Assembly (NCBI GenBank): GCA_036380875.1
Contig: DASVDX010000022.1
Coordinates: 15,753-79,752 of the forward strand
DNA: 64,000 bases
Direction: 5' to 3'
From: Acidimicrobiia bacterium
GTDB taxonomy: Bacteria; Actinomycetota; Acidimicrobiia; Spongiisociales; ZC4RG35
The notes under the pieces are model-generated. The model searched no databases. It was not told the DNA's origin and worked only from the letters and a program-made list of their open reading frames with translations. Position 1 is the stretch's first letter. The number at the start of each line of letters is the position of its first letter. Position numbers and translations under genes: made by a program. Shown here one piece after another: positions 2,900 through 19,141 of this stretch.

Positions 2900-4279
2900 A
2901 TGGCCATGGCCATCGACCCCGTGTGCGGGATGAGGATCGACACCGACGATGCCGTCGCCCGCACCGAATACGAAGGAACCACGTACTACTTCTGCAGCCG
3001 GGTGTGTTACGAGGCGTTCGTCGCCGACCAGGGGCTGTACGCGATCGGGTCCGGGAGCGATCGCCTGGACGAAGAGGAGTTGGCGAAGCGCGGCTTCACG
3101 ACCCCCGAGCACGTCGCCCGGCTGGTCGAACTGGGGATCGTGGATCCGAAGGACGGAACATTCGACCAAGAGGACGTCATGCGGGTGCGGGTCGTCGCTC
3201 AGCTGCAGGAAGCAGGCATCGAGCTCGGAGCGCTGGCCGAGGCGCTACGCAGCGGCCACCTCACGCTGGGCTACATGCAGTCTTCGGCGAGGAAGCACCC
3301 GCGTTCCAAGGCGACCTTCGCCGGGGTAGCCGAAGAGATCGGGGTCGGCTTCGACGTCCTCGAACGCCTCTATCTGGCGATGGGGCTGGCGCGACCCGCC
3401 CCCGACGAGCCGGCGCGAGAAGAAGACAGGCAGGCTCTCCGGGGACTAGGGGTCTTGTTCGAGGCCGGCGTCGAGGTCGACGATGTCATTCGGATGGCAC
3501 GGCTGTGGGGAGACAGCGTCCGAAAGATCGCCCAATACGTCCCGCACTACTTCCACAACACCGTCGAGCAGCAGTACCGCAACCAGGGATTGTCCGACAA
3601 CCGGGCCTACGAGGAGGCACTACGCCAGGTCGGGTTGCGCATCGGGCGTTCCGGCGAAGACTTCCTCGGGTGGCTGTTCCGACGGCATACCGACAACTTT
3701 GCCGTCGCTCACCAGTTCGAGCACGTGGAGGCGGGTCTCGAGTTGGCCGGCGTGAGGCGGCGGTCGGAGCGGGGGATCGAGGCGGCGGTGTTCGCCGACC
3801 TGTCCGGGTTCACCGAGCTCACCGAACGTTCCGGCGACCGAGCCGCCGCCGACGTCGCCTTGTCTCTCGCCGAACTGGCCACGGAGGAGGCTGGGCGTCA
3901 TGGCGGAGAAGTCGTCAAGCTCCTCGGCGACGGTGTCCTCCTCCACCTACCTGACCCGACCGACGCCGTGCACGTCGCCCTGGCGATCGTCGACGGGGCC
4001 GACTCGTTGGGTCTTCCCCCCGCCCATGTCGGCGTCGAGGCCGGGTCGATGCTCTACGAGGGCGGCGACTACTTCGGGCGCACGGTCAACCTGGCCGCCC
4101 GCATCGCCTCGGAGGCGGGGCCGGGGCAGGTGTTCGTAGGGGAGGGGGTCGCCGCCAATGCCGCTGCCGAGGATTTCTCCCTCATCACAGCCGGTCATTT
4201 CACCCTGAAGGGCGTCTCCGGGAAGGTGGAGATCTTCGAGGTGACACGTGGCGCAACTCCGCCCCAGGGGACTGGTTGA
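2900..4279 (+). CDS. YHS/TRASH metal-binding domain + central domain + class III nucleotidyl cyclase domain protein
   Basis: N-terminus MAMAIDPVCGMRIDTDDAVARTEYEGTTYYFCSRVCYEAF matches the YHS/TRASH CGM...YYFCS..C motif. C-terminus AAVFADLSGFTEL...KLLGDGVLLH...GRTVNLAARIAS is a cyclase domain. RBS GAGGAG lies 7-9 nt upstream of the ATG at 2900. Confidence 0.85.
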   Translation: MAMAIDPVCGMRIDTDDAVARTEYEGTTYYFCSRVCYEAFVADQGLYAIGSGSDRLDEEELAKRGFTTPEHVARLVELGIVDPKDGTFDQEDVMRVRVVAQLQEAGIELGALAEALRSGHLTLGYMQSSARKHPRSKATFAGVAEEIGVGFDVLERLYLAMGLARPAPDEPAREEDRQALRGLGVLFEAGVEVDDVIRMARLWGDSVRKIAQYVPHYFHNTVEQQYRNQGLSDNRAYEEALRQVGLRIGRSGEDFLGWLFRRHTDNFAVAHQFEHVEAGLELAGVRRRSERGIEAAVFADLSGFTELTERSGDRAAADVALSLAELATEEAGRHGGEVVKLLGDGVLLHLPDPTDAVHVALAIVDGADSLGLPPAHVGVEAGSMLYEGGDYFGRTVNLAARIASEAGPGQVFVGEGVAANAAAEDFSLITAGHFTLKGVSGKVEIFEVTRGATPPQGTG

Positions 4280-4314
4280 CGGGGCGAGGGAGCCGGCTCT
4301 AAGGTGCGGCGGGT

Positions 4315-4330
4315 AATCGATTATCGAAGA
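4315..4330. promoter_or_regulatory. AT-rich palindrome AATCGATtATCGAAGA (core TCGATtATCGA) 40-55 bp upstream of the dikinase/GntR/Mo-hydroxylase operon start
   Basis: Perfect 5+1+5 inverted repeat in an otherwise 70% GC region. The identical core recurs at 13978-14000. Confidence 0.55.
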
Positions 4331-4370
4331 TAGGACCCGCGACCGGAGGCGAGCTGGAGAGGAGGACTCC

Positions 4371-6158
4371 GTGGCCGACAGCAGCCCTGTGATCAAGCAG
4401 TTCCTGGGAGACGAGAGCTTCCCGATCGAGTGGGAGTCCGAAGAGGAGAAGAAGCTCTTCTGGTTCTTCGACGACCTCCACTGTCCACAGCCTCTCTCGC
4501 CCATGTACTTCGACATCGGCGGATGGTGGCTGACCTGCGATCACATGTTCCGGCGATTCGGCACCCCGTTCGCCGTCGACTGGGTCGCCAAGAACGTCAA
4601 CGGCTATCTGTACACGGCTGCCATCCCGGCGGACCCCGACGTCCGCGTCGATGCCATGGAGTACGGGTACCGCTACGTGCCGCGGGTGCCGAAGGACGAC
4701 CCCAACTACGCCGCCGAGATGGGCGCCTACCTGAACGCCGTGCTCCCGGTGTACGGCCAGCACTTCGCCGACTGGTGGGAGAACCGCCTCGTCCCGGAGA
4801 TGAAGCGGAACTTCGCCTACCTCGAGGAGAAGATCGACAACTGGCAGGACATCTCTCTGATGGAGTGGGCGACGATCCTCGAGGACGCCATCGACATCCA
4901 CGATCGCCACTGGAAGATCCACTGGATGCTCAACTTCGCCCAGTTGTCCGCCACCTTGAACCTCGAGGCGACGATGCGCGAGGTGAAGGGTGAGGTAGAC
5001 CCGGAGATCCTCGGCCGCCTGCAGAACTCCGCCAAGGACCGCAACTGGGACTCGATCGAGGCCCTGTGGAAGATGAAGGAGGAGATCGTCGCCGACGAGG
5101 AGCTGTCGACGATCTTCGCCCGTGAGACCGGTGTCGACGTGATGGCGGCGCTCGAGGCCTCAGAGCGCGGCCGCCGCTTCATCGAGGAGCGACTCCGCCC
5201 CTACCAGCGCGAGTTCGGCTGGCATTCGGTGTGGAGCCACGAGTTCATCTTCCCCACTCGCTTCGAGCGTCCCGAGCCGATCCTCGAGGTGATCAAGGGC
5301 TACATCGAAACCGACTACGACTACCCGGCGCGGGTGGAGGAGCTGAGAAAGGACATCGAGGAGGCGTCCCGGCAGCTGCTCGAAGGCCTCGAGGGCGAAG
5401 CCCTCGAGAAGTTGCGGGCGGCGAACGAGATCAACCTGAAGATGGCGCCGCTCACGCCCGACCACCACTTCTACATCGACCAGGGCACCAACGCCCATCT
5501 CCGGGTCGTGCTGGTCTGCATCGGCCGAAAGCTCGTCGAAGCCGGTCATCTCGACGACCCCGAGGACGTGATCTTCCTGCGCTACAACGAGTTGCGCCGG
5601 TTCATGGCCGACCCGGAGAACTTCGACGCCCGCAGCATCGTGTCACAGCGCAAAGACGAGAGGGAGGCGGCCTACGACATCCGGCCCCGGGACTGGATCG
5701 GCACGGCCACGGAGCAGGCCCTCTCGTTCCCGTACCTCGGCCTGTGGGGCTTCCCCGAACGCCTGTACATGGAGCAGCCGGAAGCCGAGGACCAGGTCAA
5801 CGGCCTCGCGGCTTCTCCCGGCGTCGTCACCGGCACGGCCAAGGTCGTGTTGAGCGTGGACGAGTTCGACCAGGTCGAGAAGGGCGACATCCTCGTCTGC
5901 CAGATGACGAACCCGGCGTGGGTGGTGCTCTTCACCAAGATCTCCGGCCTCGTCACCGACGCGGGAGGCACCGCCTCGCATCCTGCCGTTCTCGCCCGCG
6001 AGTTCGGGATCCCCGCGGTCATCGGAACGTCCGTCGCCACGTCGCGGATCGAGTCGGGAGACAAGTTGCGCGTGAACGGATCGACCGGTGTGGTGGAGAT
6101 CCTCGGCGCCGACCACCAGGAGCGCGAGGCCCCCGCCAGCGACCTGTTCACTACATGA
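4371..6158 (+). CDS. PEP-synthase-like dikinase large subunit: about 480-aa N-terminal domain plus C-terminal PEP-utilizing swivel phospho-His domain (PpsA-like / RPH RD+HD-like)
   Basis: C-terminal motif GLVTDAGGTASHPAVLAREFGIPAVIGT is the PEP-utilizers mobile domain with the catalytic His. GTG start with RBS GGAGAGGAGG. Stop overlaps the GntR start (ATGA). Confidence 0.85.
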   Translation: MADSSPVIKQFLGDESFPIEWESEEEKKLFWFFDDLHCPQPLSPMYFDIGGWWLTCDHMFRRFGTPFAVDWVAKNVNGYLYTAAIPADPDVRVDAMEYGYRYVPRVPKDDPNYAAEMGAYLNAVLPVYGQHFADWWENRLVPEMKRNFAYLEEKIDNWQDISLMEWATILEDAIDIHDRHWKIHWMLNFAQLSATLNLEATMREVKGEVDPEILGRLQNSAKDRNWDSIEALWKMKEEIVADEELSTIFARETGVDVMAALEASERGRRFIEERLRPYQREFGWHSVWSHEFIFPTRFERPEPILEVIKGYIETDYDYPARVEELRKDIEEASRQLLEGLEGEALEKLRAANEINLKMAPLTPDHHFYIDQGTNAHLRVVLVCIGRKLVEAGHLDDPEDVIFLRYNELRRFMADPENFDARSIVSQRKDEREAAYDIRPRDWIGTATEQALSFPYLGLWGFPERLYMEQPEAEDQVNGLAASPGVVTGTAKVVLSVDEFDQVEKGDILVCQMTNPAWVVLFTKISGLVTDAGGTASHPAVLAREFGIPAVIGTSVATSRIESGDKLRVNGSTGVVEILGADHQEREAPASDLFTT

Positions 6159-6865
6159 CCGCAGAACGAGACGAAATCGAGCGAGACGACTTCGGACGCG
6201 AGGACCTCAACCGCGAGGTCCTCAGCGTTCAGGTGAAGGACCGGATCCTGCAGTGGATCATGGAGGGCGAGTTGCCGCCAGGCTCCCGCATCGTCGAGAC
6301 GCGGGTGGCCCGCCGCCTCGGGGTCAGCCAGGCCCCGGTCCGGGAGGCGCTGAGGGACCTCGCCAGCGTCGGCATCGTCCAGGTGGAGCCCTATAGGGGA
6401 GCGTTCGTTCGCGAGCCGAGCCGTGAGGAGCTCGTCGAGGCGATGACCCTGCGGGGGGAGCTCGAAGCGCTCGGCGCCCGATGGGCGGTGGAGCGCATCA
6501 CCGACGAGGACCTGGCCGAACTGCGGTGGCTGATCGGCGCCATGGAGGAAGCCGCCGAAGCCCACGACACCCACGCTCACGCCCTCCACAACACGAGATT
6601 CCACCAGCGGATCATGGAAGCCTCCGGCAATCGCTCGTTGTTGTGGGTGTGGTCGCTCCTCGAGCCCATGGCCCGCACCTACTACACGGCCGCCGTGTCG
6701 GGGGCAGACCTCGGCTGGCTCGGCCGCCGGCACGTAGCGATTCTCGAGGCGCTCGAGTCCCGTGACGCCGAGAAGGTGGCCGACGTGATGCGGGCCCACG
6801 CCATGGAGGCCGAAGAGATCGTTCTGTCCCACTACCCCGACACTGAAGGAGGAGACCCGCGGTGA
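6155..6865 (+). CDS. GntR-family (FadR/FCD subfamily) transcriptional regulator
   Basis: N-terminal wHTH (VETRVARRLGVSQAPVREALRDL) followed by an all-helical FCD-like C-terminal domain. 4-bp overlaps with both neighbouring genes (ATGA upstream, GTGA downstream). Confidence 0.85.
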   Translation: MTAERDEIERDDFGREDLNREVLSVQVKDRILQWIMEGELPPGSRIVETRVARRLGVSQAPVREALRDLASVGIVQVEPYRGAFVREPSREELVEAMTLRGELEALGARWAVERITDEDLAELRWLIGAMEEAAEAHDTHAHALHNTRFHQRIMEASGNRSLLWVWSLLEPMARTYYTAAVSGADLGWLGRRHVAILEALESRDAEKVADVMRAHAMEAEEIVLSHYPDTEGGDPR

Positions 6866-7806
6866 CCACCCAGGCAGACGCCATCCTGTGGTTCGACCAC
6901 GCCGACTGCCGGCGTGTCGAAGTCGCCGGCGGCAAGGGTGCCAGCCTGGCATCGATGACCGCCTTGGGGCTCCCGGTTCCGCCTGGATTCCTGGTGCCGG
7001 CTTCGGCACTCGACCGGGCGCTGCACCAATCCGGCCACGCCTCCGAGATGCTCTCGGTCCTCTCCTCGATCAAGGGGGAGAACGACGTCGAGCCCGCCTC
7101 GGAGCAGCTGCAGAGGCTCGTGCTGGACTCCCCGATCACCGGAACGCTGGCCGAAGCCATCGCCGATGCCTACGAGAGCCTCGATCAGGGCGGCGGGGTG
7201 GCGGTCCGCTCGAGCGCCTGTGCCGAAGACGGGGAGGTGGCCAGTTACGCCGGCCAGCAGGACACCTACCTCAACGTGAGAGGCGCCGACCAGGTGCTCC
7301 ACTACGTCAACCGTTGCTGGGCCTCGTTCTTCGGGACCCGTGCCCTCTTCTACCGCCGTCTCAAGGGGTCGCTCCAGGACCTGGGGATGGCCGTCGTCGT
7401 TCAACGCCAACTCGACGCCGACAAGGCGGGCGTCATGTTCACGATCGACCCGGTTCGGCGCCGCCGCGACCAGCTTCTCATCGAGGCGGCGTGGGGCCTG
7501 GGCGAGGCTGTCGTCTCCGGGGCGGTGATCCCTGACCAATACATCGTGGCCCGGGACGGCCGGCTCAAGAAGGCGCAGGTGTCGCGCCAGGACAAGATGG
7601 TCGTGCGCCGGGCCGACGGAGGGACGGAAGAGGTCGAGCTCTCCGAGGATCAGGCGACCAGCCAGGTCCTGGACGAAGCCGAACTGTCCCAGCTCGTCGA
7701 GCTGGGGCTGCGGGCCGAAGAGATCTTCGGCGGTCCCCAGGACGTGGAGTGGGCGTTCGAGAACGGAAGCCTCTACCTCCTCCAGTCCCGCCCTGTGACC
7801 GCCTGA
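6862..7806 (+). CDS. Pyruvate-phosphate-dikinase N-terminal (PPDK_N, ATP-grasp, PEP/pyruvate-binding) domain protein; dikinase ATP-binding subunit (PpsB-like / RPH AD-like)
   Basis: VEVAGGKGASLASM...GFLVPASAL...VAVRSSACAEDGEVASYAGQQDTYLNV...GVMFTIDP...QDVEWAF matches the PEP-synthase N-terminal ATP-binding domain. GTG start overlaps the GntR stop. Confidence 0.85.
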   Translation: MTTQADAILWFDHADCRRVEVAGGKGASLASMTALGLPVPPGFLVPASALDRALHQSGHASEMLSVLSSIKGENDVEPASEQLQRLVLDSPITGTLAEAIADAYESLDQGGGVAVRSSACAEDGEVASYAGQQDTYLNVRGADQVLHYVNRCWASFFGTRALFYRRLKGSLQDLGMAVVVQRQLDADKAGVMFTIDPVRRRRDQLLIEAAWGLGEAVVSGAVIPDQYIVARDGRLKKAQVSRQDKMVVRRADGGTEEVELSEDQATSQVLDEAELSQLVELGLRAEEIFGGPQDVEWAFENGSLYLLQSRPVTA

Positions 7807-7808
7807 TC

Positions 7809-8648
7809 GTGTTCGGTTACGCCCGACCCGAGTCACTTCCCGAAGCCCTCGAGCTCGTCGGCGCCGGGGCCCGCCCGCTCGCCGGCGGCACCGATCTCTT
7901 GGTCGGTCTGAGAAAAGGCAAGTTCACCGCGGACCGGGTGGTCGACCTGAAGGCGATCACGGAGCTCCAGCCAGCGATCTACGAGACCCATGGCGGTTGG
8001 GAGATCACCGCCGGCACGGTGATGAGTGACATCGTCGACCACCCGGGCGTCCGGGCGAGATATCCGGCGCTGGTCCAGGCGGCATCTGCGGTCGGCTCTA
8101 TCCAGATCCGCAACCGGGCGACGCTGGCCGGCAACGTGTGCAACGCCTCTCCCGCCGCCGACACGGCTCCGCCGCTCCTCGTCTACGACGCCTCCGTCGT
8201 GGTCGCGGGGGCCGACGGCGAGCGCACGATCTCGCTCGTCGACTTCTTCGTGGGTCCCGGCCAGACAGCCCTCCTCCCCGGCGAGCTGGTGACCCGTCTG
8301 GTGCTGCCGCCTCCCACACGGTCCGCCGCGTTCGCCCGCCTCACCCGGCGGCGAGGCGTCGACCTGGCGACGGTGAGCGTGTGCTGCGGGGTGGGTGACG
8401 ACGGCAGTGTCCGCTTCGCCCTCGGCGCCGCCGGACCGCGGCCGCTCGTGGTGGAGGACACAAGCGGGACGTTGGCGGACCCCGCCGCTCCGGAAGGGGA
8501 TGTCAGCGGCCGCATCGGCGAGCTCCTCGCAGTCGCCACTCCGATCTCCGATGTTCGCGCCGGCGCCGACTACCGCCGGGCGATGCTCGAAGTCCTCGCC
8601 CACCGGACTCTCGAGGCAGCGTTGGCCCAGAGGGAGGAGCGGCGATGA
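7809..8648 (+). CDS. Xanthine dehydrogenase family FAD-binding (medium, CoxM/XdhB-like) subunit
   Basis: FGYARPESLPEALELVG...AGGTDLLV and FAD-binding molybdopterin dehydrogenase motifs. GTG start 2 nt after the PPDK_N stop. Confidence 0.85.
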   Translation: MFGYARPESLPEALELVGAGARPLAGGTDLLVGLRKGKFTADRVVDLKAITELQPAIYETHGGWEITAGTVMSDIVDHPGVRARYPALVQAASAVGSIQIRNRATLAGNVCNASPAADTAPPLLVYDASVVVAGADGERTISLVDFFVGPGQTALLPGELVTRLVLPPPTRSAAFARLTRRRGVDLATVSVCCGVGDDGSVRFALGAAGPRPLVVEDTSGTLADPAAPEGDVSGRIGELLAVATPISDVRAGADYRRAMLEVLAHRTLEAALAQREERR

Positions 8649-9121
8649 CCCCGCAGACGATGAACATCACCCTGGTCGTCAACGGCCAGCACCATTCCCT
8701 CGACGTCGCCGTCCATCACTCGCTGCTCGACGTGCTCCGCAACGACCTGGACCTGACCGGGACGAAGGAGTGCTGTGCCGAAGGCGAGTGCGGCGCCTGC
8801 ACGGTGCGGATGGACGAAAAGGCCGTCAACGCCTGCCTGGTCCTCGCCGTGGAGGCCGACGGAAGAGACATAACCACCATCGAAGGTCTGGCGACTGAAG
8901 ACCATCTGAGCCCGGTGCAGCAGGCCTTCCTCGAGGAGGGGGCGGTCCAATGCGGCTTCTGCATCCCGGGAATGGTCATGTCGGCCGCCTATCTCCTCGA
9001 ACACAACGACGCGCCCACCGAGGAGGAGATCCGCGAAGCCCTCTCCGGCAACCTGTGCCGGTGCGCCGGCTACAAGCGGATCGTGCGGGCGGTGCAGCGG
9101 GCGGCGGAGGCGGGTAGATGA
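8645..9121 (+). CDS. (2Fe-2S)-binding small subunit of xanthine dehydrogenase family enzyme
   Basis: Cys motifs CAEGECGACTV and CGFC...CRCAGY. ATGA overlap upstream. Confidence 0.9.
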   Translation: MTPQTMNITLVVNGQHHSLDVAVHHSLLDVLRNDLDLTGTKECCAEGECGACTVRMDEKAVNACLVLAVEADGRDITTIEGLATEDHLSPVQQAFLEEGAVQCGFCIPGMVMSAAYLLEHNDAPTEEEIREALSGNLCRCAGYKRIVRAVQRAAEAGR

Positions 9122-11379
9122 CGACAGGAAACGTCGGCCGGCCCGCAGGACGCATCGGCGGACTCGACCGGGTCACCGGCCGCCAGCGTTACGTTGCCGA
9201 CCTCCGCCTCGACGACGCCCTCCACGTGAAGCTCGTGACGCTGCCCTGTGCCCGGGCCTGGATCGTGGACATCGACACGTCGAAGGCATGGGAGGTGCCG
9301 GGCGTGCGGACGATCTTCACCGCCGCCGACCTGCCGGACCCCATGCCCCGCTACGGAGTCCACTACGACGACCGTCCCGTCCTGGCGGTGGGCGAGACCA
9401 AGTTCCACGGCGAGCCCGTGGCGGCGGTGGCCGCCGACACCCTCGACGCCGCCCAGCGAGCCGCCGCCCTCGTGCAGGTCCAGTACGAGGAACTGCCCCC
9501 GGTCCTCGATGTGCGGGCTGCCCTCGACCCGGCGGCGCCGCTCGTCGTCGATCCCGTCCTGCGACCCGACGACCCTCTGGCGTCCACCAACATCCGCCGA
9601 GAGTTCCGTTACGCCTGGGGCGACGTCGACACGGCCACCGCGGACCTGGTGATCGAGAACACCTACACGTTCCCGATGGTCACCCATTTCGCCATCGAGC
9701 CGCACGGGTTCGTAGTCGCCGCCGACGAATCAGGCGTGACCGTGTGGAGTTCCATCCAGCACCCCTACATCCTCCAGCGGGTCATGGCCCGGGTCCTCGG
9801 GTTGCCGCTGTCGAGAGTGAGGGTCATCGCCCCCGACCCCGGCGGGGCATTCGGCGGGAAGGGCTACCCGAAATTCGAGCCTCTCCTGGCCTACATGGCC
9901 ATGGCCACCGGCCGCCCCTGCCGCCTCGTGCTCACGCTCGATGAGACGTTCCAGGCGGTGCGCCGCAACAACGCCGAGGTTCGTATACGCACCGGTTTCG
10001 ACTCCGACGGCACGATCCGCTTCCAGGACATCGAAGCCGACTTCCTGATGGGAGCCTACGTCGACATCTCTGCCCGGGTGATCTCGAAGAGCAGCCACCT
10101 CGCTGCCGGTCCCTATCGCGTCCCCAACGCCCGCATCCTCGCCCGGGCACTGCATTCCCACACCCCGCCGAGCACGGCCATGCGCGGCTTCGGCACTCCT
10201 CAGTTCAGCTGGGCCCTCGAGCAGCAGATGGACGAGGCCGCCCGTCGCCTCGACATGGATCGACTGGAGATCCGCCTCCGCAACCTCGCCCGCAAGGGCG
10301 AAGAGTTCATCCCGGGAGACACCCCCGCCGACGGCGACTGGTTCGAGTCGGTCCGGAGAGCTGCCGACGCCATCGGCTGGGGTGAGCCTCTACCCGACGG
10401 CCGGGGGAGAGGGCTGGCCGTCGGCATCAAGTCCTCCGCGACGGCCGGGGCGGCCTACTCCATCCTGCGTTTCCTCTACGACGGGAGCGTGTTCGTGCTC
10501 GTCGGCACGTCCGACATGGGTCAGGGAGCGCGCACCATCCTCACTCAGATCGTCTCCGACGAACTGGGTGTGCCGCCCGAAGCCGTCAACGTCGTCATGG
10601 GCGACACCGCCGCGGCACCCTTCGATTACTCGACATCGGCGAGCCGCTCCACCGTTTTCATGGGCGGGTCGGTGATGCGCGGATGCGCCGAGTTGAAAGA
10701 CCAAGTTCGAGAGATGGCCGCCCGCCTGCGCGGCTGCGAGCCAGAGGAGATCGAGATCGACCGGGGCGTGGTCACGTTCCCCGGCGGCGAGCAGAAGGGG
10801 ATCGTCGAGGTGGTCCAAGAAGGACTAGGCGCCGTCGGCGGCGAACTGATCGCCGTCGGGCTGATGCGGGGGGAGGCGGACCCGAATCACCCGATCGGGG
10901 GAAGGCCGTGGTTCTACGAGTTCAACTGCACGGCGGTCGAACTGGAAGTCGACCGCCGGACGGGCGAGGTTCTCATCCACAAGCATGTCACCGTGGCCGA
11001 CGTCGGAAAGGCCATCAACCCCCAGCACGTGGAGAGCCAGGACGAAGGGGCGGCGATCATGGGATTGGGGCACACGCTCATGGAGCACCTGGTGCTCGAC
11101 GAGCACGGGAGGATCGTGAACCTGGGAGCGCTCGACTATCGGATCCCCACCACCAAGGACATGCCGCTCGACCTCGAGTCGATCATCGTCGAAAACGGCG
11201 ACGGGCCCGGACCTCACGGCGCCAAGGGAGTGGGTGAGGGAGGGCTCTTGTGCGTCGCCGCCGCGGTCGCTTCGGCGGTGACCGACGCGACTGGCGTTGT
11301 GATCCGCGACTTGCCGCTCACCCCCGAGCGGATCTGGCGGGCGATCAACGAGGTCACACGGTCCGAGGTTTCTCCCTGA
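9118..11379 (+). CDS. Molybdopterin-binding large subunit of xanthine dehydrogenase / aldehyde oxidoreductase family enzyme
   Basis: 753 aa with an a/b hammerhead N-terminus, PDPGGAFGGK and AMRGFGTPQ active-site region. ATGA overlap with the FeS subunit. Confidence 0.9.
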   Translation: MTTGNVGRPAGRIGGLDRVTGRQRYVADLRLDDALHVKLVTLPCARAWIVDIDTSKAWEVPGVRTIFTAADLPDPMPRYGVHYDDRPVLAVGETKFHGEPVAAVAADTLDAAQRAAALVQVQYEELPPVLDVRAALDPAAPLVVDPVLRPDDPLASTNIRREFRYAWGDVDTATADLVIENTYTFPMVTHFAIEPHGFVVAADESGVTVWSSIQHPYILQRVMARVLGLPLSRVRVIAPDPGGAFGGKGYPKFEPLLAYMAMATGRPCRLVLTLDETFQAVRRNNAEVRIRTGFDSDGTIRFQDIEADFLMGAYVDISARVISKSSHLAAGPYRVPNARILARALHSHTPPSTAMRGFGTPQFSWALEQQMDEAARRLDMDRLEIRLRNLARKGEEFIPGDTPADGDWFESVRRAADAIGWGEPLPDGRGRGLAVGIKSSATAGAAYSILRFLYDGSVFVLVGTSDMGQGARTILTQIVSDELGVPPEAVNVVMGDTAAAPFDYSTSASRSTVFMGGSVMRGCAELKDQVREMAARLRGCEPEEIEIDRGVVTFPGGEQKGIVEVVQEGLGAVGGELIAVGLMRGEADPNHPIGGRPWFYEFNCTAVELEVDRRTGEVLIHKHVTVADVGKAINPQHVESQDEGAAIMGLGHTLMEHLVLDEHGRIVNLGALDYRIPTTKDMPLDLESIIVENGDGPGPHGAKGVGEGGLLCVAAAVASAVTDATGVVIRDLPLTPERIWRAINEVTRSEVSP

Positions 11380-12277
11380 CCGCCGCCGGCGGCTCGTCCA
11401 ACGGAACCAGCGTTCGCTGACGCTTCTCGAAACGCAGCCGATGGGTGTACCCCGCCTCGCGGGCGGCAGCCACCACCTCGGCATGACCCCAGGCGGCGTC
11501 GGCGGGCACGTGGGCGTCCGAGGCCAGCGTGATCGGAACACCGGCGTCGTGGAACATCTTCAGAAACCTCGGTCCCGGGTAGACCTCGGCAGCGGCCCGG
11601 CTCAGTCCGGCACTCGAGATCTCCACCGCGGTGCCGGTGGCGACGGCACCCTCGACGACCGGCTCGTAGAGGTCGTCGATGGGCCCATCGGGCCGGTAGC
11701 CGTTGCGCTTGATGATGTCGGCGTGAGCCAGCACGTCGACCATGCCGGAGGCGGCGAGCTGGGCCTCGAGGGCGAAGTACTGCTCGTAGACGGTCCGCAC
11801 GCCGCGGCGGGCGAACTCCTCGGCCACCAGGAATCGGTCGAACGACCAGGCGCCGATCCAGTGAACGGAGCCGATCAAGTAGTCCCAGGGGTAGTCGGCC
11901 AGCAGTTCGAGGACGGCTTCTTCGGTCCCGGGCTGGAAATCGACCTCGAGTCCCAGCTTCACGGGCAGCCCCCTGTCCTTGGCGTCGAGGACGACCTCGA
12001 CATATCGGTTGAGGGAGAGATTGCGCTCCTGGCGGATGAGATCGATCGCCCCGGCCCGCAAGTCCGGGTTGGGCTCGGACTCCCACCACTCGCCCAGCAC
12101 CGGCGCCGACTCCACACACCGGTAGAAGTGCTCGGTGAACCCCAACTCGGTGACACCCCTCTCCAGGGCGTGCTCCACGTACCGGTCGATATAGCCGGGC
12201 GGGTACTCGCCCGGCGGGGGAGCGTCCGAGCTGGGCCGATGGGTGTGGGGATGGAGGTGGAGGTGGTAGTCGCTCAT
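11354..12277 (-). CDS. PHP-family phosphatase (histidinol-phosphatase HisK-like)
   Basis: MSDYHLHLHPHTH...GFTEHF...LGLEVD...GSVHWI...ASDAHVP are the PHP-domain metal-binding His/Asp motifs. Confidence 0.8.
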   Translation of the reverse strand: MSDYHLHLHPHTHRPSSDAPPPGEYPPGYIDRYVEHALERGVTELGFTEHFYRCVESAPVLGEWWESEPNPDLRAGAIDLIRQERNLSLNRYVEVVLDAKDRGLPVKLGLEVDFQPGTEEAVLELLADYPWDYLIGSVHWIGAWSFDRFLVAEEFARRGVRTVYEQYFALEAQLAASGMVDVLAHADIIKRNGYRPDGPIDDLYEPVVEGAVATGTAVEISSAGLSRAAAEVYPGPRFLKMFHDAGVPITLASDAHVPADAAWGHAEVVAAAREAGYTHRLRFEKRQRTLVPLDEPPAAVREKPRTV

Positions 12278-12299
12278 CTAGTCGGCGCCGGGGCCCCCA

Positions 12300-13154
12300 T
12301 CACCCCTGTGTGAACTTGTCGTACAGGGAGGCGGCGTTGAGCGTCTGGATGTGGTCCATCATGTACTCCTGGCCGATGTCGACGGGGTAGCGATCCCGGA
12401 AGTGGACCCGCTCGATCGTCTCCTCCCGGCTCCAGCCCTTGGCCACCGCCGCCGCCACGGCTGCCTTCCACTCGAGGAGGACCGAGCGCTGCACCGCCAG
12501 ATAGCTCAGGTCAGTCACCTCCCCGTGCCCGGGCACCAAGTACTCGACATCCAGTTGGCGGATGCGTTCCAGTGCGGCGAGCCACTGGTCGACGTCGGAG
12601 GTCATCAGCCATGTCTGGCAGTCCTTGAACACCGTGTCGCCGGTGAACACCACCCGCTCCTCGGGCACGTAGACGGCCACCTGGCCGGGAGTGTGGCCGG
12701 GGGTGTGGAGCAGTTGGAAGGTGCGGTCGCCGACGTGGAGAGTCAGGTCTCCGGTGAACACGATGTCGCCCTTGTTGGGGTCGGCGTAGTAGGTGTCCCG
12801 GTCGGGGAAGATCGCCTCTCCTTCGGGGTCGTCGGTGGGGATCGCCTCGAGGGCGTAGGCGTAGGGGTCGAGATCGGGCGTCGGGACCATGAAATTGTCG
12901 TAGACCCCCTTGTGGTGGACGACCTGGCCGGCGCCTTTGAAGAAGTAGTTCCCGAAGATGTGGTCGACGTGGTGCTCGGTGTTGATCAGGTAGCGGATCG
13001 GCCCATGGGACTCGGCTTCCTCCCGCATGGCGACAGCCCGGGTCGGCAACTGGGGGGTGTCGATCACGACCACCCCGTCGGAGGTCACCACGTAGCTGGG
13101 GTTGCAGCCACGCAGCGTGGTGTTCGTGTAGACCCGGTCGGTAACTCGTTGCAT
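12300..13154 (-). CDS. MBL-fold metallo-hydrolase
   Basis: HHVDHIFGN and HTPGHTPG motifs. ATG (MQRVTDRV) preceded by an AGGAGA RBS. The long N-terminal extension in the ORF track was rejected as low-complexity. Confidence 0.8.
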   Translation of the reverse strand: MQRVTDRVYTNTTLRGCNPSYVVTSDGVVVIDTPQLPTRAVAMREEAESHGPIRYLINTEHHVDHIFGNYFFKGAGQVVHHKGVYDNFMVPTPDLDPYAYALEAIPTDDPEGEAIFPDRDTYYADPNKGDIVFTGDLTLHVGDRTFQLLHTPGHTPGQVAVYVPEERVVFTGDTVFKDCQTWLMTSDVDQWLAALERIRQLDVEYLVPGHGEVTDLSYLAVQRSVLLEWKAAVAAAVAKGWSREETIERVHFRDRYPVDIGQEYMMDHIQTLNAASLYDKFTQG

Positions 13155-13177
13155 CTTCCGTGGTCTCCTGTCTCGGA

Positions 13178-13963
13178 TCACTGGGTGGCCGTGAGGCCGC
13201 CGTCGATCGTCAATATCTGTCCGGTGATGAACGACGAGGCGTCGGAGCAGAACAACAGGGTGGCTCCGATCAGGTCCTCGGTCACGCCCACCCGCCGGAG
13301 CGGGATCCGGTTCACGAGGCGGGCCTTGAACTCGGGATCGTCGAGGAGCATCGCCACCTGGGGGGTGTCGACGAAGGTGGGCGAGATGGCGTTGACGGTG
13401 ATCCCGTAGCGGGCCCATTCGGTGGCCCATTGCCGGGTGAGGGAGTCGATGGCGCCTTTCGCCGCCACGTAGGCGGAGTAGCCGGCGTCGATTCCCAACT
13501 GGCCGCGGACCGAGGAGATGTTGAGGACGCGGCCACCCCGGCCCCCGTCGATCATCGCCTTGACCGCCGCCTGGGTGGGGAGGATGGTGGAACGGACATT
13601 GAGCTCGAAGATCCAGTCCCAGGCGTCCCGGGGGTACTCGTGGGCTGAATAGAGGACCTTCCCGGCGCCGCCGCCGACTGCGTTGACGATTATGTCCACC
13701 CGCCCGAACTGGTCGAGGGTCTCGTCGATGGCGCGCTGCGCCTCCTCTTCGGACGTCATGTCCCCGACCACCCCGTGGGCGCGGGCGCCATCGGCGACCA
13801 ACGACTTCGTGACCTCCTCGACCGTCTCGGGAGTGCGGCCGATGATCGTCACCGCCGCCCCCGCCTCGGCCAGTCCCGCCGCCAGGGCGGCGCCTATGGC
13901 GCCGTTTCCGCCCGGGACGACCGCCACGCGTCCTGTCAGGTCGAACCTATCCAGGTGCCCCAT
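13178..13963 (-). CDS. SDR-family oxidoreductase
   Basis: GGNGAIGAALA Rossmann motif, NAVG, and the S...Y..AAK catalytic triad region. RBS GGAGGA. Confidence 0.85.
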   Translation of the reverse strand: MGHLDRFDLTGRVAVVPGGNGAIGAALAAGLAEAGAAVTIIGRTPETVEEVTKSLVADGARAHGVVGDMTSEEEAQRAIDETLDQFGRVDIIVNAVGGGAGKVLYSAHEYPRDAWDWIFELNVRSTILPTQAAVKAMIDGGRGGRVLNISSVRGQLGIDAGYSAYVAAKGAIDSLTRQWATEWARYGITVNAISPTFVDTPQVAMLLDDPEFKARLVNRIPLRRVGVTEDLIGATLLFCSDASSFITGQILTIDGGLTATQ

Positions 13964-13977
13964 CGCTCCTCCGTGAG

Positions 13978-14000
13978 AAATGATCGATTATCGAGAATGA
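13978..14000. promoter_or_regulatory. Second copy of the palindrome (ATGATCGATtATCGAGAATGA) 15-37 bp upstream of the SDR/MBL/PHP-phosphatase operon (minus strand)
   Basis: Same TCGATtATCGA core as the 4315-4330 site. Lies just upstream of the GGAGGA RBS of the SDR gene. Confidence 0.55.
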
Positions 14001-14034
14001 CCCTACCCGGCGGATGTCGTGCCGGTCAAGGGAG

Positions 14035-15033
14035 TCAGGTCTCGCCCGTCACCCGGGCGTAGGCGGCGGCGACGAACACGATCATCGCCCCGAAGAGGAT
14101 CTGGCGGAGAGCCTCCGGGTACCCGAGCGAGGTGAGGAGGGAGGAGATCACGGTGAGGATGAGGGCACCGATGATCGTGCCGCCGTATCCGCCTCGGCCA
14201 CCGAGGATCGAGGTGCCGCCGATCACCGCCGCTGCCACCGAGGGGAGGAGGGAGGTGTCGACCAGTGTCACGCTCGCCACGTTGGTGAGCCCGGAGTAGA
14301 GGAACCCGGCGATCCCGGCGAGCACGGCCGAGATGACGTAGAGGACGATCAGCACCTGCCACGCCTTCACTCCGGCCAGGCGGGACGCCACCGGGTTGTC
14401 GCCGATGGCATAGAGGAGGCGCCCGTAACCGGTGCGGTTGAGCGTGATCAGCACCCAGGCGGCGACGGGGATGAAGACCACGAGGCTGTACGGGACGATG
14501 CCCTCGACCATGCCCGCCCCGAGACGGCGGAACAGGTCCGGCACGCCGGCGCCGGTCTGCACCATCTCCAACTGCCACACGTTGGCGAGGCCCAAGACGA
14601 CCAGGCTCATGCCGAGGGTCATGATCAGCGGGTGCACGCGGAACACGCCGACGCCGATGCCGTTGATGAGACCGGCGACGGCCGCCGCCGCCAGCGCAAC
14701 GGCGATCCCCACCCACAGCCCGGGGCCGTTGACCAGCGTCGCCACCACGAACCCGGACATCGAGGCGATGGCCGCCACCGACAGGTCGATGCCGCCGGTG
14801 AGCATCGTCATCGTCTGGCAGGCGGCGAGGATGGCCAGCGGGATGGCCGTCCGCACCATCACGCCCGCCCAGTTGAGGCTGACGATGCCGGGGCGGATGA
14901 TCTCGCTGAGGATCACGAGCAGGACCAGGATCACGAGCAAGGGGATGATCGGCCGCTCGCGGAACACCTTCACCCACGCCGACGGACGGAACCAGGAGGT
15001 GCGGGCTTCAGGAGTCGTTTCGGCGACGGTCAT
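14035..15033 (-). CDS. Sugar ABC transporter permease (CUT2 / RbsC-like)
   Basis: 332-aa polytopic protein with the AIGDNPVASRLAGV signature of ribose/xylose-type permeases. The track ORF was trimmed to the MTVAETTPE start. Confidence 0.8.
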   Translation of the reverse strand: MTVAETTPEARTSWFRPSAWVKVFRERPIIPLLVILVLLVILSEIIRPGIVSLNWAGVMVRTAIPLAILAACQTMTMLTGGIDLSVAAIASMSGFVVATLVNGPGLWVGIAVALAAAAVAGLINGIGVGVFRVHPLIMTLGMSLVVLGLANVWQLEMVQTGAGVPDLFRRLGAGMVEGIVPYSLVVFIPVAAWVLITLNRTGYGRLLYAIGDNPVASRLAGVKAWQVLIVLYVISAVLAGIAGFLYSGLTNVASVTLVDTSLLPSVAAAVIGGTSILGGRGGYGGTIIGALILTVISSLLTSLGYPEALRQILFGAMIVFVAAAYARVTGET

Positions 15034-18895: not shown

Positions 18896-18968
18896 GTTTG
18901 TCTCCTCCGTCTAACCGACCTGCCGGGCGGTAGTGTCACATCCCCCCGGCGGTTTGTCGAGTGCAATG

Positions 18969-18982
18969 TGTAACCGTTTTCC
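18969..18982. promoter_or_regulatory. LacI-type operator-like palindrome TGTAACCGTTTTCC upstream of the sugar ABC SBP gene
   Basis: Matches the LacI-family consensus TGnAAnCGnTTnCA with a central CG. Confidence 0.45.
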
Positions 18983-19079
18983 GTGCGCCTGTCCATCACA
19001 ACCGGGGGATTTTGTGACCCGGCGGCGGGATCGAGGGAACCGGTTGACCTCGCCGCCGGCCATGAGGTAGCCTCCTCAT

Positions 19080-19093
19080 GGAAAACGCTTGCC
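19080..19093. promoter_or_regulatory. LacI-type operator-like site GGAAAACGCTTGCC about 50 bp upstream of the LLM oxidoreductase gene
   Basis: AAnCGnTT core with GCC flank; same family as the other sites. Confidence 0.4.
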
Positions 19094-19141
19094 AGCCGGA
19101 TCGGTGTTGGCGGGCGGAGGAGAAGCGGCAAGGAAGGTCGT

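What the first reader, a model, noticed from the sequence alone, without database searches (positions are those of the whole stretch)
4315..14000. Identical AT-rich palindrome TCGATtATCGA in the promoters of two convergent operons: a candidate regulon linking the dikinase/Mo-hydroxylase operon to an SDR-MBL hydrolase-PHP phosphatase operon
Seen in sequence:
- AATCGATTATCGAAGA sits at about 4315-4330, 40-55 bp upstream of the dikinase GTG.
- ATGATCGATTATCGAGAATGA sits at about 13978-14000, directly upstream of the RBS of the minus-strand SDR gene that heads the SDR/MBL/PHP-phosphatase operon (13963 down to 11354).
- The core is a perfect 5-1-5 inverted repeat and is conspicuously AT-rich in a 70% GC background. 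I found no third copy in the window.
- The two operons converge, overlapping by 26 bp at 11354-11379.

Inference:
- A dikinase in one operon and a PHP-family phosphoesterase in the other form a plausible phosphorylation/dephosphorylation pair.
- The embedded GntR is the obvious candidate binder of the shared site.
Basis: seen in the sequence. Interest (0 to 1): 0.7.

Follow-up and report, generated by a model that had tools for sequence, protein, structure and literature searches.

The report
Operator of a GntR catabolic regulon
The repeated 11-base palindrome is real and is very probably the docking site of the GntR repressor encoded in the first operon, so the two operons share one switch; the switch type is ordinary, but it is conserved across at least two bacterial phyla and controls a pathway nobody has characterised.

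Summary
TCGATTATCGA occurs exactly twice in the 64-kb window, at 4317-4327 and 13984-13994. Each copy lies just downstream of a conserved TTGAC(G/C)-N18-TA(A/G)GGT promoter. One promoter drives dikA-gntR-dikB-coxMSL; the other drives SDR-MBL-PHP.

Comparative evidence makes it a genuine regulatory site. In 80 dikA-centred loci (1.37 Mb, Acidimicrobiia and Chloroflexota), TCGATnATCGA occurs 110 times against about 3.5 expected. About 80% of exact copies are intergenic, although intergenic DNA is only 8%. They recur at the same promoters: the dikA operon, the SDR-MBL(-PHP) operon and a small set of other catabolic and transport operons.

Site presence tracks the operon-encoded FCD-type GntR gene. 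46 of 47 gntR+ loci carry a site, against 5 of 15 gntR-less loci. There are at least three lineage-separate gntR-less groups, some with decayed operator remnants. A GntR-anchored metagenome sample and the cultured Thermomicrobium roseum show the same pattern.

Best reading: an autoregulated GntR/FadR-subfamily repressor with a non-canonical operator (GA/TC where the family has GT/AC). This is a new member of a known kind. The effector and pathway are unknown; the closest precedent is the 3-hydroxypyridine (3hpd) cluster. The dikinase/PHP phosphatase pairing remains untested.

The parts
4276..4281 (+). Inferred -35 hexamer TTGACG of the dikA operon promoter; it overlaps the stop codon of the upstream YHS/adenylate-cyclase gene
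   Evidence: Invariant in the alignment of the window with L005, L027 and L006. No TSS data exist, so this is an inference.
4300..4305 (+). Inferred -10 hexamer TAAGGT (TAnnnT type), 18 nt after the -35
   Evidence: Conserved as TAAGGT or TATTGT. The strict sigma-70 scan does not call it.
4312..4332 (.). Operator O-dik: GGTAA-TCGATTATCGA-AGATA, core 4317-4327. The core starts 11 nt after the -10, at roughly +5 to +15.
   Evidence: Scores 31.7 bits against the matrix. Orthologous sites lie upstream of dikA operons in many loci.
4371..6158 (+). dikA: large subunit of a two-component small-molecule dikinase (Rph-like substrate domain plus phosphohistidine swivel domain)
   Evidence: PF00391 at 83 bits. 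PF27448 Rph_4th is recorded for the identical called gene. D530, G532, G533 and H537 are invariant. Below every NCBIfam cut-off.
6155..6865 (+). gntR: GntR/FadR-subfamily (FCD) regulator, 236 aa, start overlapping the dikA stop (ATGA). Proposed binder of both operators and autoregulated.
   Evidence: PF00392 at 59.5 bits and PF07729 at 88.2 bits. Start codon. Co-occurrence with the sites.
6862..7806 (+). dikB: ATP-grasp (PPDK_N) subunit of the dikinase
   Evidence: PF01326 at 299 bits.
7809..11379 (+). coxM (7809-8648, FAD), coxS (8645-9121, 2Fe-2S) and coxL (9118-11379, Mo): xanthine-dehydrogenase-family hydroxylase
   Evidence: Pfam domains. Gene calls for coxM and coxS, and the cut-off start of coxL, agree with the public calls on L001. 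Best NCBIfam models are 4-hydroxybenzoyl-CoA reductase alpha and XdhA, both below cut-off.
11354..12277 (-). PHP-domain phosphoesterase, last gene of the minus-strand operon
   Evidence: PF02811. Passes the NCBIfam subfamily PRK07328 'histidinol-phosphatase' (224 bits, cut-off 202).
12300..13154 (-). Metallo-beta-lactamase-fold hydrolase; the start is uncertain and alternative in-frame starts lie upstream
   Evidence: PF00753 at 107 bits. Start chosen by codon-usage scoring.
13178..13963 (-). SDR oxidoreductase, first gene of the minus-strand operon
   Evidence: PF13561 and PF00106. Nearest solved structures are gluconate 5-dehydrogenase-type SDRs.
13979..13999 (.). Operator O-sdr: AATGA-TCGATTATCGA-GAATG, core 13984-13994. 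On the gene strand the core starts 5 nt after the -10, so it covers the expected TSS.
   Evidence: Scores 30.8 bits. Invariant in the A3 alignment. Orthologous sites lie upstream of SDR in both Acidimicrobiia and Chloroflexota loci.
14000..14005 (-). Inferred -10 hexamer TAGGGT of the SDR operon promoter
   Evidence: Conserved as TAGGGT or TAGAGT.
14024..14029 (-). Inferred -35 hexamer TTGACC, 18-nt spacer, 5 nt after the stop of the upstream ABC permease gene
   Evidence: TTGACCGG is invariant.

Best explanation
The palindrome is the operator of the FCD-type GntR regulator encoded between dikA and dikB. A GntR dimer is proposed to bind the 21-bp site tATcA-TCGAT-n-ATCGA-TgATa, which lies on or just downstream of the transcription start of both promoters.

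Binding would block transcription of dikA-gntR-dikB-coxMSL, which makes the regulator autoregulated. It would also block SDR-MBL-PHP.

A pathway substrate or intermediate bound in the FCD domain would release the repressor, so both operons would be induced together.

Shown here: the sites, their conservation and placement, and their co-occurrence with gntR. Inferred: physical binding, the sign of regulation, and the effector.
For: 1. Enrichment. There are 110 exact TCGATnATCGA in 1.37 Mb of related loci, against about 3.5 expected under a first-order Markov model. 91 of the 112 exact sites (window included) are intergenic, while intergenic DNA is 8.4% of the sequence. Matrix hits of at least 14 bits are 131 intergenic against 5 coding.

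2. Same targets in different phyla. Sites lie upstream of dikA operons and SDR-MBL(-PHP) operons in Acidimicrobiia and Chloroflexota. They also lie upstream of a recurring set of neighbours: a transaldolase-like gene, a PPDK-like 710-aa gene, UPF0261, a cupin, an E1 dehydrogenase, an aldehyde dehydrogenase, a branched-chain-type ABC transporter, and gntR itself.

3. Link to the regulator. 46 of 47 gntR+ loci of at least 12 kb carry a strong site, against 5 of 15 gntR-less loci (Fisher p = 3e-7, not corrected for phylogeny).

4. Repeated loss. gntR-less loci fall in three separate DikA groups. Each is 82-87% identical to gntR+ relatives within its group, while the groups differ at 60-67%. Three gntR-less loci keep decayed site remnants at the same position (L072, L073, L074).

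5. Independent sample. In metagenome contigs anchored on GntR rather than dikA, 28 of 34 contigs of at least 6 kb carry sites of at least 16 bits next to the same gene families.

6. Cultured relative. On the Thermomicrobium roseum megaplasmid, the best matrix hits in 43.6 kb lie upstream of the GntR orthologue (43% identity) and of the cluster's ABC transporter operon.

7. Repressor-type placement. In the window and its three closest relatives, both operators follow a conserved TTGAC(G/C)-N18-TAnnnT by 5 or 11 nt. Across all loci, TAnnnT occurs 0-12 nt upstream of the core in 47 of 124 gene-facing orientations against 11 of 72 others (p = 0.001).

8. Family geometry. The site has the 11-bp frame of FadR-subfamily operators (TKGT-N3-ACMA; PMC4494728). 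The recognition helix S-Q-A-P-V-R-E-A-L is almost invariant in 61 orthologues (Q59 in 61 of 61, A60 in 58 of 61). Four of the five closest solved FCD homologues have Arg where this family has Gln, and McbR has Ile. That fits an altered base specificity.
Against: There is no binding or expression experiment.

The operator lacks the GT/AC dinucleotides that define most GntR operators.

Five gntR-less loci still carry a site (L033, L035, L043, L072, L081). Most are explicable by contig ends, by a gntR copy elsewhere, or by a merged gene call, but this was not proven.

Promoter hexamers are inferred from conservation in four close relatives. The strict sigma-70 scan finds nothing. The full -35/-10 pattern is not significantly enriched across all loci (22 of 124 against 8 of 72).

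A genome-wide count of sites in one complete genome could not be made.
Confidence: 0.85

Rival explanations
1. The site is a real operator but is bound by a different transcription factor encoded elsewhere; the embedded GntR recognises some other sequence.
For: No binding data exist. The site lacks the canonical GT/AC of GntR operators. A few gntR-less loci keep a site.
Against: Site presence or absence follows gntR in three separate lineages, with decay of the site after gntR loss. GntR-anchored sampling recovers the same sites. No other regulator gene recurs in the loci. Sites lie upstream of gntR itself when it is transcribed separately (L053, L054, L041, T. roseum).
Confidence: 0.06
2. GntR binds the site but acts as an activator or dual regulator rather than as a simple repressor.
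For: The sign of regulation is inferred only from position. In some loci sites lie 150-400 nt upstream of the start codon, or occur as pairs about 110-120 nt apart.
Against: In the window and close relatives the core lies 5-11 nt downstream of a conserved -10, which is the position typical of repressors. Most characterised FadR-subfamily local regulators of catabolic operons are effector-released repressors (general knowledge; for example DipR, PMC11472048, listed).
Confidence: 0.07
3. The palindrome works at the RNA level, as a 5'-UTR hairpin or a known riboregulator.
For: If the inferred promoters are right, the dikA site would be transcribed.
Against: No Rfam family matches window 3500-15000 even at E <= 1. 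Folding of either site is no better than shuffled sequence (z = -1.2 and -0.8), and the dikA palindrome is unpaired in its minimum-energy fold. The ten specified core bases are invariant in sequence rather than covarying. In the Chloroflexota SDR promoters inspected, the operator flank coincides with the likely -10 hexamer.
Confidence: 0.01
4. Chance, a duplicated promoter fragment, a dispersed repeat, or a restriction/methylation target (ATCGAT is the ClaI site) with no regulatory role.
For: Within the window alone, two copies against about 0.16 expected is only moderately unlikely. One-mismatch copies are not enriched.
Against: There is about 30-fold enrichment across 1.37 Mb, a strong intergenic bias, fixed positions relative to the same gene families in different phyla, and no similarity of the surrounding DNA beyond promoter hexamers.
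Confidence: 0.01

Closest known systems
FadR-subfamily (FCD) GntR repressors and their palindromic operators, such as FadR, LldR, PdhR, GlcC and DipR
   Same: Same domain architecture (GntR wHTH plus FCD). The regulator gene sits inside or next to the catabolic operon it controls. The operator is an A/T-rich palindrome in an 11-bp frame with outer T/A and inner G/C at the same positions as TKGT-N3-ACMA. Weaker flanking boxes lie 7-10 nt from the centre, as described for the family (PMC4494728).
   Different: The conserved dinucleotides are GA/TC, not GT/AC. The first residues of the recognition helix are S-Q-A-P instead of the usual S/T-R-x-x. No NCBIfam equivalog is reached; the best is PhnR at 139 bits against a cut-off of 271.5. 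The motif was not found in the literature library or in the stored supplement of the 2015 GntR compendium.
3hpd cluster of Ensifer adhaerens HP1 (3-hydroxypyridine catabolism; bioRxiv 10.1101/2020.01.08.898148)
   Same: A xanthine-dehydrogenase-family Mo hydroxylase is clustered with a GntR gene (orf7), a 'pyruvate-phosphate dikinase' (orf9) and a 'PEP-utilizing mobile subunit' (orf10). The two dikinase genes are essential for hydroxylation, and orthologous clusters are reported in Actinobacteria.
   Different: No separate SRPBCC subunit and no maleamate-pathway genes were found in the two window operons. The partner genes here are an SDR, an MBL hydrolase and a PHP enzyme. Sequence identity to the Ensifer proteins could not be measured. 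Neither the operator nor the role of orf7 has been described.
Two-component small-molecule dikinases PpsAB, CreHI and HpeHI, with the pathway phosphatase HpeD
   Same: The split is the same: a large subunit with an Rph-like substrate domain plus a His swivel domain, and a smaller ATP-grasp subunit. Phosphorylation followed later by a dedicated phosphatase is an established pathway logic (PMC9618137 and PMC12167813).
   Different: Those pathways use carboxylases or P450s, not Mo hydroxylases. HpeD's closest characterised homologue is NagD, not a PHP enzyme. DikA is below the cut-off of every NCBIfam model, and its substrate is unknown.
NanR of E. coli, a FadR-subfamily GntR that binds tandem (GGTATA)3 repeats
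   Same: Many sites here continue as ATCGATn repeats in a 7-bp register, shown by matrix hits offset by 7 nt. This recalls multi-dimer binding to tandem hexamers (PMC8012715 abstract).
   Different: The core here is a true two-fold palindrome, and single 21-bp sites are the rule. Cooperative multi-dimer binding is only a possibility.

Membership tests
GntR family, FadR subfamily (FCD) | N-terminal GntR winged-helix DNA-binding domain (PF00392) | tested here: met
   59.5 bits against a cut-off of 27.
GntR family, FadR subfamily (FCD) | All-helical C-terminal FCD effector domain (PF07729) with a conserved Asp/His metal-site pattern | tested here: met
   88.2 bits against a cut-off of 24.3. D138, H150, H193 and H215 are invariant in 13 diverse orthologues. 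Assigning them as metal ligands is an inference.
GntR family, FadR subfamily (FCD) | Palindromic operator matching NyGT-Nx-ACNy (TKGT-N3-ACMA) | tested here: not met
   The site has the same 11-bp frame and the outer T and inner G are kept, but GT/AC is replaced by GA/TC in all 110 exact sites. Exceptions to this consensus are known in the family, so this does not exclude membership of the protein family.
GntR family, FadR subfamily (FCD) | Specific binding of the protein to the site, released by a small-molecule effector | not testable with these tools
   Only co-occurrence and position are available.
Named GntR equivalogs (PhnR, LldR, PdhR, NanR, GlcC, CsiR, HutC) | Score above the NCBIfam curated cut-off | tested here: not met
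   The best is TIGR03338 phnR_burk at 139.3 bits against 271.5; all others score lower.
Two-component small-molecule dikinase (PpsAB/CreHI/HpeHI type) | Large subunit with an Rph-like substrate domain plus a swivel domain carrying T/SxxGGxxxH | tested here: met
   PF00391 at 83 bits. PF27448 Rph_4th is recorded for the identical gene. D530, G532, G533 and H537 are invariant. The Rph structures 5fbs and 5hv1 are the top PDB hits.
Two-component small-molecule dikinase (PpsAB/CreHI/HpeHI type) | Separate ATP-grasp (PPDK_N) subunit encoded alongside | tested here: met
   dikB scores 299 bits against PF01326. In 47 related loci it is replaced at that position by an unannotated 295-aa protein.
Two-component small-molecule dikinase (PpsAB/CreHI/HpeHI type) | ATP-dependent phosphorylation of a phenolic or enolic hydroxyl | not testable with these tools
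3hpd-type 3-hydroxypyridine cluster | Mo hydroxylase L/M/S subunits clustered with a dikinase pair and a GntR gene | tested here: met
   Gene content of 4371-11379, compared.
3hpd-type 3-hydroxypyridine cluster | Separate SRPBCC subunit (HpdA3) and adjacent maleamate-pathway genes (hpdBCDE) | tested here: not met
   No such domains occur among the ten proteins of the two operons. The rest of the window was not fully annotated.

The most novel reading that the evidence does not exclude
The operator/GntR pair defines a regulon conserved in both Acidimicrobiia and Chloroflexota. It ties a two-component small-molecule dikinase and a Mo hydroxylase to an SDR, an MBL hydrolase, a PHP phosphoesterase, a transaldolase-like enzyme, a cyclase, a cupin, UPF0261 and dedicated transporters. 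That would be an uncharacterised, environmentally widespread catabolic pathway whose members can now be listed by operator scanning.

It may also explain why Mo hydroxylases of the 3hpd type need a dikinase. In addition, the regulator would carry a new GntR recognition code, with Gln/Ala in place of the usual Arg at the start of the recognition helix and GA/TC in place of GT/AC in the operator.
Probability: 0.5. Interest if true: 0.55.

Novelty: new member of a known kind. Interest (0 to 1): 0.4.

Why it matters
The result turns two adjacent 'hypothetical catabolic' operons into one testable regulon with a defined 21-bp operator and a named candidate repressor.

The pair is conserved in hundreds of soil and marine Acidimicrobiia and Chloroflexota MAGs. 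It is also present in the cultured Thermomicrobium roseum. Operator scanning therefore gives a principled list of genes belonging to an unknown pathway built around a dikinase-dependent Mo hydroxylase. The only studied relative of that enzyme combination, the 3hpd cluster, still has an unexplained requirement for the dikinase.

It also adds a clean natural example of a FadR-subfamily regulator that has left the GT/AC operator rule, with an invariant helix change that could be tested for causality.

It does not reveal a new kind of regulatory mechanism.

Tried and rejected
1. Vitamin-B6 catabolism. I asked whether SDR plus MBL could be pyridoxal 4-dehydrogenase plus 4-pyridoxolactonase. The only support was a 29.9-bit NCBIfam hit against a cut-off of 325. 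PDB sequence searches put an unnamed MBL (8d2z) and gluconate 5-dehydrogenase-type SDRs on top, with no pyridoxal enzyme among the 60 MBL hits shown or the SDR hits at E <= 1e-40. Dropped.

2. Known RNA element. There is no Rfam match at E <= 1 and no folding signal.

3. Canonical sigma-70 promoter scan. It found nothing at either site. The promoters were instead inferred from phylogenetic footprints.

4. Literature search for the motif strings. It returned only unrelated oligonucleotides. The stored supplement of the 2015 GntR motif compendium has no Thermomicrobium entry and no ATCGAT-type operator.

5. A third regulon member in the window. There is no further site scoring at least 10 bits in 64 kb. 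This includes the regions upstream of the sugar-type ABC transporter and of the window's paralogues of aldehyde dehydrogenase, E1-alpha and alcohol dehydrogenase.

6. Genome-wide site count.

7. A simple test using only the region immediately upstream of dikA gave 12 apparent gntR+/site- loci. In most of them dikA is not the first gene of the operon and the site lies upstream of a leading gene such as UPF0261 or an ABC transporter; a few others were gene-start artefacts. A per-locus count was used instead.

Full report
**Observation**

The sequence TCGATTATCGA is present exactly at window 4317-4327 and 13984-13994, and nowhere else in the 64 kb. The first copy lies 44-54 nt upstream of the GTG at 4371. 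The second lies 21 nt upstream of the minus-strand ATG at 13963, next to a GGAGGA ribosome-binding site.

Copies with one mismatch are not enriched: 6 are found against 3.4 expected, and 13 of 100 shuffles do as well. Under a first-order Markov model, about 0.16 exact copies are expected per 64 kb. The window alone is therefore suggestive but not conclusive.

**Genes**

The plus-strand operon was annotated from Pfam, codon-usage gene calls and public gene calls on an identical metagenome contig:
- dikA (4371-6158): Rph-like substrate domain plus phosphohistidine swivel domain.
- gntR (6155-6865): GntR plus FCD domains, with its start overlapping the dikA stop.
- dikB (6862-7806): PPDK_N ATP-grasp domain.
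- coxM, coxS and coxL (7809-11379): a xanthine-dehydrogenase-family Mo hydroxylase.

The minus-strand operon is SDR (13963-13178), MBL-fold hydrolase (about 13154-12300) and PHP phosphoesterase (12277-11354). It converges on coxL with a 26-bp overlap.

Upstream of the SDR gene, on the same strand, lies a sugar-type ABC transporter (18895-14035). The second palindrome therefore sits at an internal promoter, between the last permease gene and the SDR gene.

The organism belongs to the Acidimicrobiia. The GntR protein is 100% identical on metagenome contig Ga0207873_1000756.

**Comparative test anchored on dikA**

A profile of DikA homologues retrieved 80 loci from species-representative genomes: Acidimicrobiia, several Chloroflexota lineages and a few other bins. 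These total 1,365,837 bp at 68% GC.

- TCGATnATCGA occurs 110 times, against 0.3 expected under a zero-order model and 3.5 under a first-order model.
- With a codon-usage gene caller that reproduces the public calls, 91 of 112 exact sites (window included) are intergenic, although only 8.4% of the DNA is intergenic.
- Of 136 hits scoring at least 14 bits against a 21-bp matrix, 131 are intergenic.
- The conserved element is a 21-bp palindrome, tATcA-TCGAT-n-ATCGA-TgATa. It often continues in a 7-bp register (ATCGATn repeats), seen as matrix hits offset by 7 nt.

**Targets**

The genes immediately downstream of sites are the same families again and again:
- the dikA operon;
- the SDR-MBL(-PHP) operon;
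- a transaldolase-like gene transcribed divergently from dikA;
- a 710-aa protein with PPDK_N and swivel domains;
- UPF0261 followed by a PEP-hydrolase-like gene;
- a cupin operon;
- an E1 dehydrogenase and an aldehyde dehydrogenase;
- a branched-chain-type ABC transporter;
- gntR itself, where it is transcribed separately.

The exact arrangement of the window, coxL followed by convergent PHP-MBL-SDR with a site at the SDR promoter, recurs in Acidimicrobiia (L005, L027) and in Chloroflexota (L048, L055, L068).

**Who binds the site**

Presence of the site follows presence of the gntR orthologue. Among loci of at least 12 kb, 46 of 47 gntR+ loci have at least one site scoring 20 bits or more. 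Only 5 of 15 gntR-less loci do (Fisher p = 3e-7, uncorrected for phylogeny).

The gntR-less loci fall into three DikA groups that differ from one another at 60-67% identity. Within each group they are 82-87% identical to gntR+ relatives with the same synteny. This implies at least three separate losses or gains. Examples are L078 against L077 and L073, L014 and L018 against L012 and L017, and L065 against L037.

In three gntR-less loci a decayed copy remains at the orthologous position upstream of dikA (L072, L073, L074).

The five exceptions are L033, L035, L043, L072 and L081. They are explicable by contig ends, by a gntR copy elsewhere (several genomes carry a second copy near the cupin operon), or by a merged gene call. 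This was not proven.

A second, independent sample was anchored on GntR rather than on DikA, using public metagenome contigs. It gave the same picture: 28 of 34 contigs of at least 6 kb carry sites of at least 16 bits, always next to the same gene families.

In the cultured Thermomicrobium roseum DSM 5159, a related cluster lies on the megaplasmid. It encodes a branched-chain-type ABC transporter, a Tm-1-like protein, a PEP hydrolase, GntR (43% identity), a cyclase, dikB, coxM, a fumarylacetoacetate hydrolase, an ABM protein, dikA (49% identity), coxL and coxS. The best matrix hits in 43.6 kb lie directly upstream of gntR (AATCGATTCTCGAT) and upstream of the transporter operon (ACGATTATCGATTATC).

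**How it most likely works**

The two window promoters were aligned with their three closest relatives. In both, a conserved TTGAC(G/C) is followed by an 18-nt spacer and TA(A/G)GGT. The operator core then starts 11 nt downstream for dikA and 5 nt downstream for SDR. That puts it on the expected transcription start and the first transcribed bases.

In several Chloroflexota SDR promoters, the left arm of the operator (TATTCT or TATCAT) appears to be the -10 hexamer itself, 17-18 nt after TTGAC. Across all loci, a TAnnnT lies 0-12 nt upstream of the core in 38% of gene-facing orientations against 15% of the others (p = 0.001). The full -35/-10 pattern is not significantly enriched, and the strict sigma-70 scan is negative.

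This placement is typical of a repressor that blocks RNA polymerase. Because gntR is inside the dikA operon, the regulator would be autoregulated. Repression and effector-dependent release are inferences from position and from what is generally known of FadR-subfamily regulators. They are not shown here.

**Comparison with the family**

FadR-subfamily operators are A/T-rich palindromes with conserved TKGT/ACMA boxes, usually 3 nt apart. They often have weaker extra boxes 7-12 nt from the centre (PMC4494728).

The present site has the same 11-bp frame and keeps the outer T and inner G, but it reads TCGA-TnA-TCGA. The family's hallmark GT/AC is replaced by GA/TC.

The recognition helix of the 61 orthologues reads S58-Q59-A60-P61-V-R-E-A-L (Q59 in 61 of 61, A60 in 58 of 61). 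Four of the five closest solved FCD structures, and the entries of the 2015 compendium seen here, have Arg at the Gln position; McbR has Ile. From memory of the FadR-DNA structures, that Arg (Arg45) contacts the G of GT. The substitution is therefore a plausible specificity determinant, but this is inference.

The protein reaches no NCBIfam equivalog. Neither the motif strings nor a Thermomicrobium regulog were found in the searchable literature or in the stored compendium supplement.

**What the regulon does**

DikA and DikB match the two-component small-molecule dikinases PpsAB, CreHI and HpeHI. These phosphorylate phenolic hydroxyls, and in the Hpe pathway a dedicated phosphatase follows (PMC9618137 and PMC12167813).

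The closest known gene cluster is 3hpd of Ensifer adhaerens. There a Mo hydroxylase converts 3-hydroxypyridine only when the adjacent dikinase pair is present, and a GntR gene (orf7) lies alongside.

The window lacks the SRPBCC subunit and the maleamate-pathway genes of 3hpd. The substrate is therefore probably different, and it remains unknown.

PHP is found in only 10 of 80 loci, against 38 for SDR and 35 for MBL. A vitamin-B6 reading of the SDR-MBL pair was tested and dropped.

**Rivals**

- A different, unlinked regulator is made unlikely by the gntR co-occurrence.
- An RNA element is unlikely: there is no Rfam hit, no folding signal, and the core is invariant in sequence rather than covarying.
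- Chance or a dispersed repeat is contradicted by the enrichment and by the fixed placement of the sites.

**Verdict**

This is an autoregulated FadR-subfamily GntR repressor with a non-canonical operator, co-controlling the dikinase/Mo-hydroxylase operon and the SDR-MBL-PHP operon. It is a new member of a known kind.

Its value lies in the regulon it defines for an uncharacterised and widespread pathway, and in a testable change in the GntR recognition code. Confidence in the operator and regulon assignment is about 0.85. Confidence in repression as the mode of action is somewhat lower.

Noticed in passing
L056:12521-13408 and 46 other loci (cluster c6); absent from the window: A protein of about 295 aa with no Pfam or NCBIfam match (contains GGESNHGKS) lies between gntR and coxM in 47 of 80 loci. 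That is exactly where the window has dikB. Those loci usually carry a 710-aa PPDK_N-plus-swivel protein after coxL, so the ATP-grasp partner of DikA seems to be interchangeable.
   Followed up: partly
L072 9942, L073 and L074, upstream of dikA: gntR-less loci keep decayed copies of the operator at the orthologous position (20.8, 11.6 and 11.2 bits). This looks like erosion after loss of the regulator.
   Followed up: partly
L009 17920, L013 12078, L024 12072, L033 10123, L035 8547, L038 16620, L066 17906, L084 17888: TCGATGATCGA also recurs, with GC-rich flanks, in the sequence conserved just downstream of coxL, where the codon-usage caller places the 3' end of the 'cyclase' gene. It looks like a coding coincidence rather than an operator.
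   Followed up: partly
NC_011961.1 (Thermomicrobium roseum DSM 5159 megaplasmid) 56-73 kb; L085 and L086: A cultured organism carries a related cluster with a GntR orthologue and variant operator sites at two promoters. It is a practical system for experiments.
   Followed up: yes
window 2900-4279: A YHS-domain/adenylate-cyclase-like gene ends inside the inferred -35 of the dikA promoter. It is conserved at this position only in the closest relatives, L005 and L027.
   Followed up: no
window 18896-19141: The divergent region between the ABC-transporter binding-protein gene and a luciferase-like monooxygenase gene has no TCGAT site. It contains an inverted pair of CGTTTTCC 8-mers (18975-18982 and 19080-19087), which is probably chance.
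   Followed up: no
L041, L046, L059, L070, L120, L145 and others: Some Chloroflexota genomes carry two close gntR copies, each scoring about 340 bits against the orthologue profile. One lies in the dikA operon and one lies next to a cupin-containing three-gene operon (cupin plus two unannotated genes). Both are flanked by the same operator.
   Followed up: partly
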